Below the pieces are notes generated by a model that was given only the letters and a program-made list of their open reading frames with translations, was not told where the DNA came from and searched no databases. From sequence record NC_134263.1: a stretch of 64,000 bases of DNA; one strand, 5' to 3'. Below, piece after piece: positions 6,823 to 41,645 of the stretch. The position numbers and the translations under genes were made by a program. The DNA is from Escherichia phage T5_ev219. Each line of letters opens with the position of its first letter. Within the stretch, counting starts at the first letter, position 1.

Positions 6823-7815
6823 ATGAGGCTATATAAACCAGATAACGCAACCGTCTTAAAAGGTGCGCTGCGTAACCTGCTGGACGGTAGCAGAACAACC
6901 AGCATTAAACATTTTATTAACAAGGCTGAAACTATTCACCAAAACTTTTTTGATGATTATGATGCCTATGATATGGATAGTTTTCTACCATTATATAAGC
7001 AAGGGGCAACGCTAGTTTTATATAATCAGGAATCTCACTTGCTTACTAGTCGAGGGCCAGATACTGATTTTATTATAGTGAAAGGCAGTACAGTAAAAGC
7101 CTATGATGCGGGGGCGGGCTTAGAAGTTTTCTCGATAGAAAATTATGAGCCTTATGATAAGGATCTTTATGACGTAGAAAATTTTCTCGATTCATTTTGG
7201 CGTTATTTATCAATTGGGTGGAATCGGTCGGATTATGACGGGTATCGTTTTGCGGCTGTAATGGCTTTTGATGATAACGGTAATTTTTTGTTACCGTCGG
7301 AATTATACCCGTATGTATACAATGATTTAATAGAGGAGGCTGGTTTTACTTTCTGGAAAGATGAAGATCAGCCTATTGACAATATAGAAAACCATGCTGT
7401 AAATTCTAACACTCAAAGCGTTAACACTCAAATTACTGAAAACAAAGGAAAAAATACCATGACCAAGATCGCTAATATCGTTGCCGCTAATAAATCCGCT
7501 GTTGTAAATGCTGCAAAACTGGAGGCGGGTAAAATTGCATTAACTCAAATTACGAAAGTAGCGGCTAAAAAAGCACCATTCATGATCAAAGGTTATATCG
7601 ATACGCCTATTGGTCGAGTAGTGATTGCTAACCTGCTGAGTGTAGCGGTTGACCAATACGCCCCAAATAACCAAAAGGCGAAAGCGGTAGCAGGGGCGGC
7701 TATGGAAGCGGCAATGCTGGAAATGGTGCAAAGTTTTAACATCGCTGAAATGATTGATGAAATGGTGAAAGGTATTGATATTTCTACTTTTACCACTAGC
7801 ACCGAAATCGAGTAA
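6823..7815 (+). CDS. hypothetical protein
   Basis: 330-aa ORF with GGGAGG RBS; Ala/Lys-rich C-terminus. Confidence 0.6.
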   Translation: MRLYKPDNATVLKGALRNLLDGSRTTSIKHFINKAETIHQNFFDDYDAYDMDSFLPLYKQGATLVLYNQESHLLTSRGPDTDFIIVKGSTVKAYDAGAGLEVFSIENYEPYDKDLYDVENFLDSFWRYLSIGWNRSDYDGYRFAAVMAFDDNGNFLLPSELYPYVYNDLIEEAGFTFWKDEDQPIDNIENHAVNSNTQSVNTQITENKGKNTMTKIANIVAANKSAVVNAAKLEAGKIALTQITKVAAKKAPFMIKGYIDTPIGRVVIANLLSVAVDQYAPNNQKAKAVAGAAMEAAMLEMVQSFNIAEMIDEMVKGIDISTFTTSTEIE

Positions 7816-32831: not shown

Positions 32832-33042
32832 TTTGCTTTCCTTCCCTTCACTTTATAAGATATATTATACAGAGAATTAAGCAGAATAGCAAATGAATTT
32901 TTAATAAATTTACTTATTGTGTAGGCCACCTGGAGGCTATGAACCCCACGGCTGACAAAGAAGTTTGCGAGACCTCTCTTAAATGCCAGAATAGACCCGC
33001 CGATCTATCGGAACCTACATAATAAGTAAACTTTATAGTGTC

Positions 33043-33162
33043 ATTCTAGACAGGATTCGAACCTGTTATCACTTGTGCGGACTTACGAGAACCATTCTTT
33101 CACTCGAATCGAACGAGCTTCTGCCCTCGCCAAGTTGGTTTCCCCATCAACCACGCTAGAAT
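33043..33162 (-). other. 120-nt tRNA-like structured element (two T-arm-like hairpins inside a 7-bp closing stem)
   Basis: CTAGAAT/ATTCTAG pair at the ends; internal GGTTCGAATCC-like and TTCGATT hairpins. Confidence 0.3.
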
Positions 33163-33284
33163 GTTTGATTGTTTTCAGTGCAAGAGTCCGAGTCTTGGAC
33201 ACGACCGCTTCGCAAGTACATAGGCAGCTTATCATGAGTCAGCACTTCCGAATTGCTAGCTCCGTGTTCTGCACTGAAATTTTA

Positions 33285-33641
33285 TTAGTTTAACCGTAAA
33301 GTATTATCTACTTCACCATTAATTGTTCGGCATTCCTCTGGGATTGCCGGGGTGGCCTTGTATTCCCACCACTCAGCACCATCATATTCCCCACGTTCTA
33401 GCCAAGTTCCATCGGCAAACCATACATTACCATAAAGTAATTGTCCACCGTATCCAGAATCATATTCAAAGTCTAGGTTATTAAGAAAATCCTCAATATC
33501 TTCTTCTGCATAACCTAAAGGTAATACCCAAACTTTTTTATCCCCATAATACCCGAATTCTATTTTAATACACTTAACTTCAGAATTAGTATTTTTTAAG
33601 GCAAGTAACAGCTCTTCTTTAGCATTACGCATATTACGCAT
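33285..33641 (-). CDS. hypothetical protein
   Basis: Track ORF 33285..33728 trimmed to Met30 because the N-terminal extension runs into tRNA-Asp. Confidence 0.5.
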   Translation of the reverse strand: MRNMRNAKEELLLALKNTNSEVKCIKIEFGYYGDKKVWVLPLGYAEEDIEDFLNNLDFEYDSGYGGQLLYGNVWFADGTWLERGEYDGAEWWEYKATPAIPEECRTINGEVDNTLRLN

Positions 33642-33666
33642 AATATATTCCCATACTGGATTAATT

Positions 33667-33743
33667 TGGCGCGACCGATGGGATTTGAACCCACATTCTC
33701 TCCCGTGACAGGGGAGTACCATTACCAAGCCAGCCCCGGTCGC
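33667..33743 (-). tRNA. tRNA-Asp (GTC)
   Basis: Perfect acceptor; loop CTGTCAC. Confidence 0.75.
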
Positions 33744-33752
33744 ATAATTTAT

Positions 33753-33938
33753 TTACTCAGCTTTGAGTTTTTCAATAGCTGCATTAAGTTCTTTAAGAAA
33801 CTCTTTTCGTACATTAAGACGATTGAGACTTACTAGTATATCATGTTTAAGTTCTTCGATGTATTTCTTTTCAACTTCAATATTGTTGATAGTGCTATCA
33901 CGATGAACTTCTAACTGTGCAATTACATTCTTGGACAT
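33753..33938 (-). CDS. hypothetical coiled-coil protein
   Basis: 61-aa ORF. Confidence 0.4.
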   Translation of the reverse strand: MSKNVIAQLEVHRDSTINNIEVEKKYIEELKHDILVSLNRLNVRKEFLKELNAAIEKLKAE

Positions 33939-34040
33939 GCTTGTTTCCTCAGTTATTAATGAAAATGGTATCTGTGGCTGAATTCGATGTCAGCAATGAT
34001 AGCTGGTTGGCTACCGGTTTACTTAACTCTACACAGAATT

Positions 34041-34118
34041 TGGCGGTTCCTGCTGGATTCGAACCAGCAACCCTCAACTTAACAAGATGCCGCTCTAACC
34101 AATTAGAGCTAAGGAACC
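34041..34118 (-). tRNA. tRNA-Asn (GTT), tentative
   Basis: Perfect acceptor, D and T arms; weak anticodon stem; loop TTGTTAA. Confidence 0.55.
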
Positions 34119-34613
34119 ATATAAGTCAGAACTAGAGTTAATACGTTCTAGATATTTACTAAGATCCCTAGAATTTATACTAAACCACTCATGTTCTTTT
34201 AAATCTTTGAAATACTGGTGAATTAGTTTTTCACCTTTTCGTTTGTCAAACCAAAAAGACCAATGCTCTAACTTATAATCCCTATAAGGGGAATAAGTCT
34301 GATATTGAGCTAATCTCTCTTTTGGATTTTGACTCATACCTATTTTATACTGATTTTTCCATGCAGGATTACTAATACAGTATACAAAACCTTCAGAAAT
34401 AGGAAGTTTATTTTCCTGCTTAAACTTTATAAAGGAAAGTGCAGCAAGTTTTCTCGAATACATAGTATTTGTATTCTTTTTGGTATTACCATTGGTTCCT
34501 GAAAGATTTATATATTCTTCCATAAATCTCTGGATTAGTTCTGCGGTTATATAGAAGGGCTCATTAGTAACAACGCCTTTCTTTACCAAACTATCAAAAA
34601 CTTTTGTATGCAC
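34095..34613 (-). CDS. GIY-YIG-like domain protein
   Basis: 172 aa; GFVYCISNP...YKIGMSQNP..R pattern; last 7 codons and stop overlap the 5' end of tRNA-Asn. Confidence 0.55.
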   Translation of the reverse strand: MHTKVFDSLVKKGVVTNEPFYITAELIQRFMEEYINLSGTNGNTKKNTNTMYSRKLAALSFIKFKQENKLPISEGFVYCISNPAWKNQYKIGMSQNPKERLAQYQTYSPYRDYKLEHWSFWFDKRKGEKLIHQYFKDLKEHEWFSINSRDLSKYLERINSSSDLYGSLALIG

Positions 34614-34633
34614 TACTTCTTTCCTTTAGTAAT

Positions 34634-34709
34634 TTGGACGACCGCATGAGATTTGAACTCACATAAAAAGGATTTGCAATCCTTCGCCTAAGCCATTCAG
34701 CCAACGGTC
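34634..34709 (-). tRNA. tRNA-Cys (GCA)
   Basis: Loop TGCAAAT. Confidence 0.65.
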
Positions 34710-34897
34710 GATTTATCTTGTTTTTCGAGATCTTCAAATTCTAAATCATTGAAGTTCCCTAGAGTACGGGAGTAGAACCCGTCTCCTGCGTCATAGCCTG
34801 ATTTGCCACAATCACACATTTTAAATTCACGAAGATGTGTGAAAATATGCTCAGAACCACAACACTTAAATCTAACTAATCGTTTCATTAGTTTCAT
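34697..34897 (-). CDS. small zinc-ribbon-like protein
   Basis: 66 aa; CCGSEH...CDCG; 3' end overlaps tRNA-Cys 5' end. Confidence 0.45.
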   Translation of the reverse strand: MKLMKRLVRFKCCGSEHIFTHLREFKMCDCGKSGYDAGDGFYSRTLGNFNDLEFEDLEKQDKSTVG

Positions 34898-34946
34898 TAG
34901 CTTCTCCAGTTCAATTTATATAATTATTATATAGAACTTTTGGAAA

Positions 34947-35231
34947 CTAAGCAACTACATTTTTTAAGAATTTGATGTCTTTCTTCTTCTTATATTTCCA
35001 CGTTAATGGATTCTGTCGATTGTGAACGCTTGAGATCTTCGTCTCGTCAAAGTTCTTCAATATCATGTAATCACAAGATAATTGTTCTAATGGAATGTGA
35101 TCACCGTCAAAAGCATATACATAAGGCTGTTGACTAGCACGATAATGATAGACTTTGTTAATTCTACGTTTCAGCGACTTATCAGCGCAGTAAATAAAGA
35201 AGTTTTCAGGATGCATCAGCATCTCCTTCAA
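34947..35231 (-). CDS. hypothetical protein
   Basis: 94-aa ORF. Confidence 0.45.
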   Translation of the reverse strand: MKEMLMHPENFFIYCADKSLKRRINKVYHYRASQQPYVYAFDGDHIPLEQLSCDYMILKNFDETKISSVHNRQNPLTWKYKKKKDIKFLKNVVA

Positions 35232-35233
35232 TT

Positions 35234-35308
35234 TGGTGCACCCTGTTCGTATCGAACGAACCTCTCAAGCTCTTCAGGCAAGCGCTAATCCATCTCAGCT
35301 AAAGGTGC
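35234..35308 (-). tRNA. tRNA-Phe (GAA), tentative
   Basis: Good acceptor and T arm; loop CTGAAGA; partial anticodon stem. Confidence 0.55.
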
Positions 35309-35476: not shown

Positions 35477-35483
35477 TTAAATT

Positions 35484-40811: not shown

Positions 40812-41313
40812 TTTAAGTATTTTTAAGAACTCTCGTAAAAACTCTTAAAAATACAGACGATACCGGGAGAGTCATAAGTCTCACTCATTAAGTATTTCAA
40901 GACAAAATACAGTAACGTCTATTATTTTCCAGTTTAAGTCAGGGTGACTTAGTGGTTATGTCCTGCGGTATATTGAGGACTCGGTTAGGCTTGGGGTCAT
41001 GACTTCCCGCCTTTTGCTGCTACTCAACAGGAGTTATCGCGAATTACCTGTGCTATTGTGCACCATTAGTGACATCTCTCATGTCAGCATTTCCCACTTT
41101 GTGGATAGCTTGAAAAACTACTCCGATATGGAGAAAGAACTTCACTATCCTAGAATACCTTCTAAAGTTCTTCTTTAGCCTGGACATAGTTAAATCGTAA
41201 TAAAACTATTCAGCAGACTGGTTGGTTAGTCTGGAACCAACTACCGCGTGGTTTAGGCAGTGCGCAACTAACCTCGGAAGCTTTTACGTTAAAAGCATCA
41301 GTTATCCAGTTCT

Positions 41314-41385
41314 TACCGACCGTAGGATTCGAACCTACATCTTCCACCAGTTACGGCTTGGTAATACCAATTATACTAGGACGGC
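41314..41385 (-). tRNA. tRNA-like element (no encoded CCA; possible pseudogene)
   Basis: T arm GTAGG-TTCGAAT-CCTAC; acceptor with one mismatch; non-canonical anticodon loop. Confidence 0.3.
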
Positions 41386-41645
41386 AGTGTTACTACATAA
41401 GTGATTTCCACACCCCACTATTTATAAATTAGAGAAGAGTTTAGGGGAGAGGTTTCAGACGCCCCATTTTACACGTTCTAGCCACTAACCGGGATTGCCG
41501 CCCCCTGTGTACTAGTTTTCCAACTAACCCACCGACTCTATTCAATGCGCTCCGGTTGGGATTCTGCACTCAGCGTAATCGGCTCGCTGTTCTCTAATTT
41601 ATGAATATATTATACAGAATTTATAGGCATTTAGCAAATAAATTT

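What the first reader, a model, noticed from the sequence alone, without database searches (positions are those of the whole stretch)
34095..34709. Protein-coding 3' ends overlap the 5' ends of tRNA genes
The GIY-YIG-like ORF ends 24 nt inside tRNA-Asn (34095-34118) and the zinc-ribbon ORF ends 13 nt inside tRNA-Cys (34697-34709), all on the same strand. tRNA processing would cut the mRNA 3' end, which may couple mRNA stability to tRNA maturation or reflect endonuclease genes inserted against tRNA boundaries.
Basis: seen in the sequence. Interest (0 to 1): 0.45.

Follow-up and report, generated by a model that had tools for sequence, protein, structure and literature searches.

The report
Phage genes ending inside tRNA genes
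In this T5-like phage two small protein genes really do run into the start of the next tRNA gene and borrow their stop codon from it, but this is already annotated in phages T5 and BF23 and is a common by-product of how variable (often nuclease) genes are squeezed between tRNA genes in this phage family.

Summary
Confirmed, with one small correction. The window is a T5-like phage (97% identical to BF23, chee24 and T5). On the minus strand, the 172-aa ORF 34095-34613 ends 24 nt inside tRNA-Asn (34041-34118). The 66-aa ORF 34697-34897 ends 14 nt, not 13, inside tRNA-Cys (34635-34710). ARAGORN and Rfam agree on both tRNA 5' ends. Both ORFs are real genes: a T5orf172/GIY-YIG-like nuclease and a DUF7695 zinc-ribbon protein.

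The overlaps are not new. GenBank records of T5 (T5.069) and BF23 (ORF trn 2.8, 2.7*) already annotate them. The idea that tRNA maturation cuts a homing-endonuclease mRNA from its stop codon was published for T4 segB, and transcript processing was likewise proposed to lower expression of the T5 tRNA-cluster endonucleases.

Comparison shows a family-wide pattern. T5orf172 paralogs fill other inter-tRNA spacers and again stop inside or at the next tRNA in about 12 of 15 contexts. HNH and PD-(D/E)XK nuclease ORFs do the same. In 17 clusters, 36 of 92 ORF-to-tRNA junctions overlap. The nuclease ORF swaps together with its own tRNA-Asn allele. The zinc-ribbon ORF is a truncated form fused to tRNA-Cys.

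Best reading: the overlaps are a by-product of cassette insertion and recombination at tRNA boundaries. RNase P cleavage then probably leaves non-stop mRNAs; this step is inferred, not tested.

The parts
34041..34118 (-). tRNA-Asn (GTT), 78 nt with encoded CCA; the 'GGTTCC...' allele
   Evidence: ARAGORN; Rfam RF00005 at 55.4 bits with the full model matched; identical gene annotated in T5 and BF23
34095..34613 (-). 172-aa T5orf172/MUG113 (GIY-YIG-like) nuclease ORF, GTG start, TAG stop. It equals T5.069 and BF23 ORF trn 2.8. Nuclease domain spans aa 75-158; aa 165-172 are encoded by the tRNA.
34095..34118 (-). 24-nt overlap: ORF codons 165-172 plus stop coincide with tRNA-Asn positions 1-24
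   Evidence: The tail GSLALIG is invariant in homologs that are only 78-82% identical overall. Model confidence is lower there: pLDDT averages 75 over residues 161-170 and 46 over 171-172
34614..34634 (-). 21-nt spacer between the tRNA-Cys 3' CCA and the GTG start (AATTACTAAAGGAAAGAAGTA), containing the Shine-Dalgarno sequence AAGGA
   Evidence: sequence; BF23 annotates an RBS here
34635..34710 (-). tRNA-Cys (GCA), 76 nt with encoded CCA; the 'CGACCG...' allele
   Evidence: ARAGORN; Rfam at 48.5 bits with the full model matched; annotated in T5 and BF23
34697..34897 (-). 66-aa DUF7695 zinc-ribbon-like ORF (BF23 ORF trn 2.7*, which BF23 starts at the second ATG, 34888). It is a C-terminally truncated form of a ~90-aa protein.
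34697..34710 (-). 14-nt overlap: the last codons (..S)TVG plus TGA coincide with tRNA-Cys positions 1-14
34898..34965 (-). Shine-Dalgarno sequence (CTGGAGAAGC) and the region homologous to early promoter P14b of T5/BF23. This is the presumed start of the transcript that carries ORF, tRNA-Cys, ORF and tRNA-Asn. Coordinates are approximate.
   Evidence: by homology only: BF23 and T5 annotations and alignment A8; the simple promoter scan did not call it

Best explanation
The two overlaps are real. They are the local form of a family-wide architecture in T5-like phages (Demerecviridae). Variable ORF cassettes, many of them homing-type nucleases, occupy the whole spacer between same-strand tRNA genes. 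Each starts 16-21 nt after the upstream tRNA's CCA. Each has no stop codon or terminator of its own and runs on to the first in-frame stop triplet in the 5' part of the next tRNA.

For the 172-aa T5orf172 (GIY-YIG-like) gene, the unit that comes and goes between phages is [ORF + its own tRNA-Asn allele]. This is as expected for a free-standing homing endonuclease gene that co-converts its flanks. For the 66-aa zinc-ribbon gene, the overlap arose when its 3' end (a second zinc-ribbon module plus the stop) was lost and the remainder became joined to a different tRNA-Cys allele.

Consequence, inferred: both ORFs and both tRNAs lie on one early transcript. RNase P cleavage at tRNA position +1 would remove the last 7 (or 4) codons and the stop. 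Only unprocessed precursor could then give full-length protein, and the processed fragment would be a non-stop mRNA, expected to be rescued by tmRNA and degraded. That would keep expression low.

Shown: coordinates, gene reality, recurrence, cassette boundaries. Inferred: homing activity, co-transcription, RNase P truncation and its effect on expression.
For: Boundaries and reality of the genes.

Recurrence: T5orf172 paralogs (35-57% identical) lie between other tRNA pairs and end inside or at the next tRNA.
- Tyr>ORF>Glu, +15 (Th1) and +10 (GEC_vB_N3)
- Tyr>ORF>Asn, +10 (Klebsiella phage)
- ORF>Lys, +10 (Eps7)
- ORF>Asp, 0
- ORF>Pro, 0
- ORF>Arg, +33, and ORF>Ser, +43 (My1)
- ORF>Asn, +22, and ORF>Lys, +13 (metagenomic contigs)

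HNH_3/NUMOD4 and PD-(D/E)XK nuclease ORFs also overlap tRNAs, by 6-10 nt. In 17 clusters, 36 of 92 dereplicated ORF>tRNA junctions overlap and most of the rest stop 1-15 nt upstream. T5orf172 overlaps in 5 of 6 junctions against 31 of 86 for other ORFs (Fisher p = 0.03).

Cassette boundaries: phages without the ORF have tRNA-Cys, a 7- or 152-nt spacer, and a different 83-nt tRNA-Asn allele. Homology resumes exactly at the tRNA-Asn 3' end. Across loci, allele and ORF presence are perfectly linked in Markadamsvirinae. At the Tyr-Glu site, the ORF-bearing allele reads through the native 7-nt spacer AATTTAA into U8-A9-G10 of tRNA-Glu.

The C-terminal tails are not conserved among paralogs, and some members have their own stop. 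The tail has lower model confidence (pLDDT about 75 falling to 46).

Zinc-ribbon ORF: relatives of ~90 aa stop 1-3 nt before tRNA-Cys. The window form lacks about 97 nt and adjoins another tRNA-Cys allele. T5 carries an unrelated ORF in the same slot.

No terminator-like site lies on the minus strand between the parts. BF23 annotates only promoter P14b, upstream of them.

Literature: PMC2330249 proposes that tRNA-Arg maturation cuts segB between its last and stop codons and lowers expression, and says lowering of expression by primary-transcript processing was also proposed for the T5 tRNA-cluster endonucleases. PMC10448857 describes T5orf172 as a GIY-YIG subfamily of homing endonuclease genes enriched in T5-like phages. 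PMC10644984 states that homing endonuclease genes account for most differences among T5-like genomes.
Against: No nuclease or homing activity has been shown for this ORF, and its 74-aa N-terminal part has no recognised DNA-binding domain. Many non-nuclease ORFs in Proteus/Providencia-type phages also overlap tRNAs, so nuclease insertion is not the only route to overlap; general compaction contributes. Some ORFs of 40-60 aa counted in the survey may not be genes. The direction of events (insertion versus deletion) cannot be decided from the alignments. The recurrence of overlap in 10 or more independent contexts could instead reflect selection for the overlap.
Confidence: 0.62

Rival explanations
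1. Selected regulatory device. The overlap is maintained because RNase P cleavage of the pre-tRNA removes the stop codon. This throttles a potentially toxic nuclease (non-stop mRNA, tmRNA tagging, decay) and ties its expression to the unprocessed precursor pool.
For: The geometry makes the cut unavoidable if RNase P acts. The same idea is published for T4 segB/tRNA-Arg, and transcript processing was likewise proposed to lower expression of the T5 endonucleases (PMC2330249). Overlap recurs in many independent T5orf172, HNH and PD-(D/E)XK contexts, and T5orf172 is enriched for overlap.
Against: Family members with their own stop at 0, -4, -51 or -113 nt exist. Overlap lengths vary from 0 to 43 nt with no preferred register beyond what tRNA sequence imposes. 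Non-nuclease ORFs overlap too. The zinc-ribbon case is plainly a truncation. There are no expression data.
Confidence: 0.25
2. Annotation artefact. The ORFs are chance reading frames, or the tRNA 5' ends are misplaced, so no real overlap exists.
For: Spurious ORFs that cross tRNA genes are common on the opposite strand of this region. One listed TTG-start ORF (33285..33728) overlapping tRNA-Asp is such an artefact.
Against: Two independent tRNA finders agree on the 5' ends. Pfam hits are above gathering score, motif residues are invariant across 25-29 homologs, the structure model is confident and GIY-YIG-like, and the second ORF has 295 phage homologs. The T5 and BF23 curators annotated the same overlaps together with ribosome-binding sites.
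Confidence: 0.02
3. Functional tail. The amino acids encoded by the tRNA 5' segment (GSLALIG; STVG) are needed for protein activity, so the tRNA sequence does double duty under dual selection.
For: The tail GSLALIG is invariant in homologs that are 78-82% identical elsewhere.
Against: That invariance is explained by the tRNA itself. Paralogs carry unrelated tails (SC, VP, C, APIV, PFW, GLW) dictated by whichever tRNA follows, and some have none. The Pfam domain ends at residue 158, and model confidence declines over the last residues, from about 75 to 46.
Confidence: 0.04

Closest known systems
T5 gene T5.069 / BF23 ORF trn 2.8 with tRNA-Asn, and BF23 ORF trn 2.7* with tRNA-Cys (GenBank NC_005859, AJ604530)
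   Same: These are the same genes at 97-99% identity, with the same 24-nt and 14-nt overlaps already present in the deposited annotation.
   Different: T5 itself has an unrelated 42-aa ORF (T5.070) upstream of tRNA-Cys that stops 5 nt before the tRNA. The records call all of these ORFs 'hypothetical protein'.
Phage T4 segB (GIY-YIG homing endonuclease) upstream of tRNA-Arg in the T4 tRNA cluster (PMC2330249)
   Same: It is a free-standing GIY-YIG-superfamily nuclease gene inside a phage tRNA cluster and co-transcribed with the tRNAs. tRNA 5' maturation is proposed to separate the ORF from its stop codon and lower expression. The gene promotes inheritance of the neighbouring tRNA genes.
   Different: SegB is a classical Seg protein with proven cleavage and homing, and by that paper's description the cut falls just between its last and stop codons. 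Here the protein belongs to the T5orf172 subfamily with a C-terminal nuclease domain, its activity is untested, and 7 codons plus the stop lie inside the tRNA.
T5 HNH endonucleases F-TflI, F-TflII, F-TflIV in the tRNA region (Akulenko et al. 2004, cited in PMC2330249 and PMC10644984)
   Same: These are site-specific nucleases encoded among the T5 tRNA genes, and transcript processing has been suggested to down-regulate them. HNH-type ORFs in related phages also end 6-10 nt inside tRNAs.
   Different: They belong to a different nuclease superfamily (HNH). hegA (F-TflIV) lies about 2 kb away from the finding.
T5orf172 homing endonuclease genes of ICP1 and other phages (PMC10448857)
   Same: They share the Pfam family and GIY-YIG-like core, expand within a phage lineage, and sit at boundaries of genetic exchange. 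That paper notes enrichment in T5-like phages.
   Different: Most of those carry CapR/DUF723-type zinc-finger DNA-binding repeats. The window protein has only a 74-aa helical N-terminal part. The paper does not describe the link to tRNA boundaries.
tRNA punctuation of animal mitochondrial transcripts (Ojala et al. 1981; from general knowledge)
   Same: mRNAs are flanked directly by tRNAs on one precursor and released by tRNA processing. Protein-gene 3' ends abut or overlap tRNA 5' ends.
   Different: In mitochondria, incomplete stops are completed by polyadenylation. No such repair is known in E. coli, where the product would be a non-stop mRNA.

Membership tests
tRNA (Rfam RF00005) | Cloverleaf covariance-model match above the gathering score with a complete 5' end | tested here: met
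   tRNA-Asn scores 55.4 bits and tRNA-Cys 48.5 bits (gathering score 29), with model positions 1-71 matched in full. ARAGORN gives the same 5' ends.
T5orf172 / GIY-YIG superfamily nuclease | Profile match to PF10544/PF13455 above the curated cut-off | tested here: met
   MUG113 scores 59.3 bits (cut-off 22.3) and T5orf172 47.6 bits (cut-off 20). The GIY-YIG profile itself scores only 13.6 bits, below its cut-off.
T5orf172 / GIY-YIG superfamily nuclease | GIY-YIG fold | tested here: met
T5orf172 / GIY-YIG superfamily nuclease | Conserved catalytic-motif residues (Tyr of GIY, the YIG-like K-I-G, Arg, Glu) | tested here: met
   G75, Y78, K90, G92, R100, E128, E142 and W143 are invariant in 25-29 homologs at 28-82% identity. 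Their assignment to catalytic roles is by analogy, not tested.
T5orf172 / GIY-YIG superfamily nuclease | DNA endonuclease activity | not testable with these tools
   Requires purified protein and substrate DNA.
Free-standing homing endonuclease gene | Presence/absence polymorphism at one locus among close relatives, with sharp boundaries | tested here: met
   The Cys-Asn interval is 516 nt with the ORF and 7 or 152 nt without it. Homology breaks at the tRNA-Cys 3' end and the tRNA-Asn 3' end. The Tyr-Glu site behaves the same way.
Free-standing homing endonuclease gene | Paralogs spread to several sites and lineages | tested here: met
   About 15 distinct contexts in Tequintavirus, Epseptimavirus, Klebsiella, Pectobacterium and metagenomic phages.
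Free-standing homing endonuclease gene | Cleavage of the ORF-less allele and preferential inheritance in mixed infection | not testable with these tools
   Requires an experiment. Linkage of the ORF to a distinct tRNA-Asn allele is compatible with this feature but is not proof.
segB-type ORF/tRNA overlap with processing-dependent loss of the stop codon | ORF and tRNA on the same strand, with the stop codon downstream of the RNase P site | tested here: met
   The stops lie at tRNA positions 22-24 and 12-14.
segB-type ORF/tRNA overlap with processing-dependent loss of the stop codon | Co-transcription, meaning no terminator or promoter between ORF and tRNA | tested here: inconclusive
   The scan found no terminator-like site on the minus strand, and promoter-like sites were no more frequent than in shuffled sequence. 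BF23 annotates only P14b, upstream. These are predictions, not transcript maps.
segB-type ORF/tRNA overlap with processing-dependent loss of the stop codon | RNase P cleavage truncates the mRNA in vivo and lowers protein yield | not testable with these tools
   Requires 3'-RACE or RNA-seq and RNase P/tmRNA mutants.
DUF7695 (PF24749) | Profile match above the gathering score | tested here: not met
   The score is 23.6 bits against a cut-off of 25, and only profile positions 1-50 of 58 are matched because the window protein is truncated. Homology to full-length ~90-aa relatives is nevertheless clear (50-76% identity; A4).

The most novel reading that the evidence does not exclude
T5orf172 nucleases of T5-like phages are specialised 'tRNA-gene homing' elements. 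Each travels as a cassette with its own, cleavage-resistant tRNA allele and targets the ORF-less tRNA allele or spacer of competing phages. The built-in overlap is a selected dose limiter, in which RNase P converts the nuclease mRNA into a non-stop message. Such elements would drive turnover of phage tRNA repertoires, which matter for evading tRNA-targeting host defences.
Probability: 0.2. Interest if true: 0.55.

Novelty: already known. Interest (0 to 1): 0.27.

Why it matters
The observation as stated adds nothing new. The overlaps are in the T5 and BF23 GenBank records, and the processing-coupling idea is in the T4 segB literature.

The comparative picture has some value. About 40% of ORF-to-tRNA junctions in Demerecviridae tRNA clusters overlap. 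Three nuclease superfamilies use tRNA-internal stop codons. One T5orf172 gene is strictly linked to a particular tRNA-Asn allele. Together these results point to nuclease cassettes as the cause of tRNA-cluster mosaicism. That is relevant now that phage tRNAs are known to counter tRNA-cleaving defences (PARIS, retron Eco7, Septu).

There is also a practical point for annotation. Gene callers that forbid CDS/tRNA overlap will truncate or drop these genes.

Tried and rejected
1. I checked whether the tRNA 5' ends could be moved to remove the overlap. ARAGORN and Rfam agree on them, so this was rejected.

2. I considered whether the ORFs were chance frames. Domain hits, homologs and the structure model rule this out.

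3. I looked for promoters or terminators that would separate ORF and tRNA. The simple scans found nothing beyond chance and no minus-strand terminator. This is uninformative about the true promoters, and the annotated P14b was not called.

4. I tested whether overlapping ORFs are longer than non-overlapping ones. They are not significantly so (Mann-Whitney p = 0.35).

5. I asked whether there is a preferred overlap register. The register follows where tRNAs happen to carry stop triplets, mostly positions 8-10, 13-15 and 22-24, so it is no evidence of design.

6. A literature search for T5 transcriptome data on this region found nothing usable. One search and one paper look-up failed on short search terms.

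8. MAFFT misaligned tRNA-Tyr in alignment A3, so that junction was read directly from the sequence.

Full report
**Identity of the window.** The region 33600-35300 is 97% identical over its full length to Tequintavirus phages chee24, BF23 and T5, and matches 499 phage records. The window therefore covers the early-region tRNA gene cluster of a T5-like phage. ARAGORN finds 23 tRNA genes, all on the minus strand.

**Check of the observation.**
- The 172-aa ORF spans 34095..34613 (minus strand, GTG start, TAG stop). tRNA-Asn spans 34041..34118.
- Rfam's tRNA model matches positions 1-71 in full, with the 5' end at 34118 (55.4 bits). The overlap is therefore 24 nt.
- In that overlap the ORF reads GGT TCC TTA GCT CTA ATT GGT TAG, which is tRNA positions 1-24.
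- The 66-aa ORF spans 34697..34897, and tRNA-Cys spans 34635..34710 with its 5' end at 34710 (48.5 bits).
The TGA stop lies at tRNA positions 12-14.

**Both ORFs are real genes.**
- The first matches Pfam MUG113 (5.5e-16) and T5orf172 (2.5e-12), both above gathering score.
- It has 27 database homologs with an invariant G-F-x-Y...K-I-G...R-L...Q-T-Y-S-P-x-R-D...E...E-W core.
- The second ORF falls just below the DUF7695 cut-off but has homologs in 295 phage records, down to 41% identity in Proteus and Pectobacterium phages.

**Already annotated.**
- The T5 RefSeq record lists CDS T5.069 (34006..34524) overlapping tRNA-Asn (33952..34029) by the same 24 nt.
- The BF23 tRNA-region record (AJ604530) lists ORF trn 2.8 overlapping tRNA-Asn, and ORF trn 2.7* (7351..7542) overlapping tRNA-Cys (7289..7364) by 14 nt. 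It also annotates ribosome-binding sites and promoter P14b upstream.
- chee24 shows the same arrangement.
- In T5 itself the slot upstream of tRNA-Cys holds an unrelated 42-aa CxxC...CxxC ORF that stops 5 nt before the tRNA. The swap is bounded by the Shine-Dalgarno sequence and by ATAAA immediately upstream of the tRNA.

**The pattern is family-wide.** tblastn with the 172-aa protein found about 78 phages carrying the near-identical gene and several hundred carrying paralogs at 30-57% identity. I fetched representative loci and ran ARAGORN on them. The paralogs also lie in inter-tRNA spacers, usually starting 16-21 nt after the upstream tRNA. They end as follows:

| Context | ORF end relative to tRNA +1 | Source |
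|---|---|---|
| Tyr>ORF>Glu | +15 | Th1 and two IMG/VR contigs |
| Tyr>ORF>Glu | +10 | GEC_vB_N3 |
| Tyr>ORF>Asn | +10 | Klebsiella phages |
| ORF>Lys | +10 | Eps7, VSe12 |
| ORF>Asp | 0 | L017 |
| ORF>Pro | 0 | L038 |
| ORF>Arg, ORF>Ser | +33, +43 | Pectobacterium phage My1 |
| ORF>Asn, ORF>Lys | +22, +13 | metagenomic contigs |

- One further pair of related contigs (Lys>ORF>Arg) gives +50 in L023 but -4 in L024; I count it as uncertain.
- Only three contexts clearly lack overlap or abutment. One of these has a consensus promoter in the 51-nt gap.
- The C-terminal tails differ between paralogs and are dictated by whichever tRNA follows. The Pfam domain ends at residue 158.
- Model confidence is lower at the C-terminus: block means are 75 for residues 161-170 and 46 for 171-172.
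- The tail GSLALIG is invariant in homologs only 78-82% identical elsewhere, as expected if the tRNA constrains it.

**Survey of 17 clusters.** I scanned 17 loci of about 16-20 kb (the window plus IMG/VR contigs).
- They gave 92 dereplicated junctions in which a same-strand ORF of at least 40 aa ends within -30 to +70 of a tRNA 5' end.
- Of these, 36 overlap the tRNA, 52 stop 0-15 nt upstream, and 4 stop further upstream.
- In the window itself the other small ORFs stop 1 to 15 nt before the tRNA 5' end: 10 nt (Thr), 1 (Lys), 4 (Pro), 9 (Asp), 13 (Gln) and 15 (Ile).
- T5orf172 ORFs overlap in 5 of 6 junctions against 31 of 86 for the rest (Fisher p = 0.03).
- The overlapping ORFs also include HNH_3/NUMOD4 nucleases and a PD-(D/E)XK nuclease.
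- In Proteus/Providencia-type phages, many ORFs of unknown function overlap as well.
- Caveat: some short ORFs in the survey may not be genes.

**Where the stop falls.** Its position is set by tRNA sequence. Of 251 distinct tRNAs, 145 carry a stop triplet at positions 8-10 (the conserved U8-A9-G10). About 70% of entering frames meet a stop inside the tRNA, and 48% do so by position 24.

**Cassette boundaries for the nuclease ORF.**
- Phages without the ORF between tRNA-Cys and tRNA-Asn have a 7- or 152-nt spacer and a different, 83-nt tRNA-Asn allele (GGGTCG...).
- Homology to the window stops at the tRNA-Cys 3' end and resumes exactly at the tRNA-Asn 3' end (A2).
- Among Markadamsvirinae loci, the 78-nt GGTTCC allele always comes with an upstream T5orf172 ORF. 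That is 4 loci in two different upstream contexts.
- The GGGTCG allele never has an upstream T5orf172 ORF (11 loci).
- At the Tyr-Glu site the window reads Tyr-CCA-AATTTAA-Glu. GEC_vB_N3 reads Tyr-CCA-AATTAAAGG...ORF...AAGCAATTTAA-Glu.
- The cassette therefore has no stop of its own. It reads through the native 7-nt spacer into TAG at tRNA-Glu positions 8-10. Short AATT(T/A)AAG repeats flank it.
- There the upstream tRNA-Tyr allele differs between the two phages.
- These features are what one expects of free-standing homing endonuclease genes that co-convert their flanks.
- Barth et al. (PMC10448857) classify T5orf172 as a GIY-YIG subfamily of homing endonuclease genes enriched in T5-like phages.
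- PMC10644984 states that such genes account for most differences among T5-like genomes.

**The zinc-ribbon ORF has a different history.**
- Relatives in saus132, S124 and My1 are about 90 aa, with a second C-terminal CxxCG...CHWECPxCG module.
- In saus132 and S124 they stop 1-3 nt before tRNA-Cys; in My1 no tRNA is nearby.
- The window/BF23/Eps7 form lacks about 97 nt, which is that module plus the stop. It adjoins a different tRNA-Cys allele (CGACCG versus GCATCC; A5).
- The overlap here is therefore the result of a deletion or recombination at the tRNA boundary. The ORF is not a nuclease.

**Mechanistic consequence (inferred).**
- No terminator-like site lies on the minus strand between the parts.
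- The curated BF23 annotation places only promoter P14b upstream of ORF 2.7*. The likely transcript is therefore P14b - ORF - tRNA-Cys - ORF - tRNA-Asn - RNA3 and onward.
- RNase P cleavage at tRNA +1 would remove seven codons plus the stop from the nuclease mRNA, and four codons plus the stop from the zinc-ribbon mRNA. That would leave non-stop messages.
- 3' processing of the upstream tRNA would leave a 21-nt leader carrying the Shine-Dalgarno sequence.
- The SegB paper (PMC2330249) proposes exactly this for T4 segB/tRNA-Arg. It adds that lowering of expression by primary-transcript processing was also proposed for the T5 tRNA-cluster HNH endonucleases.
- Whether the overlap is selected for this effect or merely tolerated cannot be decided from sequence.
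- Members with their own stops, the variable overlap length, the non-nuclease cases and the truncation origin of the second ORF all favour 'by-product, tolerated'.

**Verdict.** The 'processing couples mRNA fate to tRNA maturation' reading is plausible and already published as a hypothesis. The specific feature is already annotated in public records, so novelty is low. The comparative regularities found here are a modest extension and suggest clear experiments.

Noticed in passing
window, 3' flanks of all 23 tRNA genes (for example 34630-34634 and 35477-35483): 22 of 23 tRNA genes encode CCA. Sixteen are followed directly by (A)ATT..., twelve of them by AATT. This may be an AU-rich 3'-processing (RNase E-like) signal. 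The same AATT(T/A)AAG string flanks both sides of a T5orf172 cassette in phage GEC_vB_N3.
   Followed up: partly
window 34041-34118, compared with loci L004, L006, L033-L042: tRNA-Asn exists as two very different alleles in T5-like phages. A 78-nt GGTTCC... form always has a T5orf172 ORF upstream. An 83-nt GGGTCG... form with an enlarged variable region never does.
   Followed up: partly
window ~33965-34038 (-): This region is homologous to 'RNA3', a tRNA-like stable RNA annotated in T5 and BF23 2 nt downstream of tRNA-Asn. Neither ARAGORN nor Rfam recognises it. It is identical in phages with either tRNA-Asn allele.
   Followed up: no
window 32929-33285 (-): This long stretch has no called tRNA. 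It corresponds to the stable RNAs 'RNAIV' and 'RNA2' (tRNA-like), and in BF23 a tRNA-Gly, of the T5/BF23 annotations. Rfam found no family there at E <= 0.1.
   Followed up: no
window 33285-33728 (-): The TTG-start ORF listed as overlapping the 3' part of tRNA-Asp is an ORF-listing artefact. T5 and BF23 annotate the same frame from an internal ATG (348 nt), starting after the tRNA.
   Followed up: yes
window 41313-41386 (-): ARAGORN calls a tRNA-Ser with anticodon ACT and no encoded CCA. Both features are unusual compared with the other 22 tRNAs. It may be a tRNA-like RNA or a miscall.
   Followed up: no
L049 2559-2633; L041 10488-: Related phage contigs carry predicted tRNAs with a CTA anticodon, which would resemble amber suppressors. 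In such phages the tRNA-internal TAG stops borrowed by upstream ORFs could be read through.
   Followed up: no
L029 (Proteus phage Stubb) 289-609 versus tRNA-Trp 600-675: RefSeq already annotates a 106-aa hypothetical ORF overlapping tRNA-Trp by 10 nt. Overlaps of 10 nt using the triplet at tRNA positions 8-10 are frequent for non-nuclease ORFs in Novosibvirus-type phages.
   Followed up: partly
window 34898-34960 versus T5 (L002 2608-2830): T5 carries an unrelated 42-aa CxxC...CxxC ORF (T5.070) in the slot of the window's DUF7695 ORF. The replacement is bounded by the shared Shine-Dalgarno sequence CTGGAGAAGC and by ATAAA immediately upstream of tRNA-Cys.
   Followed up: yes
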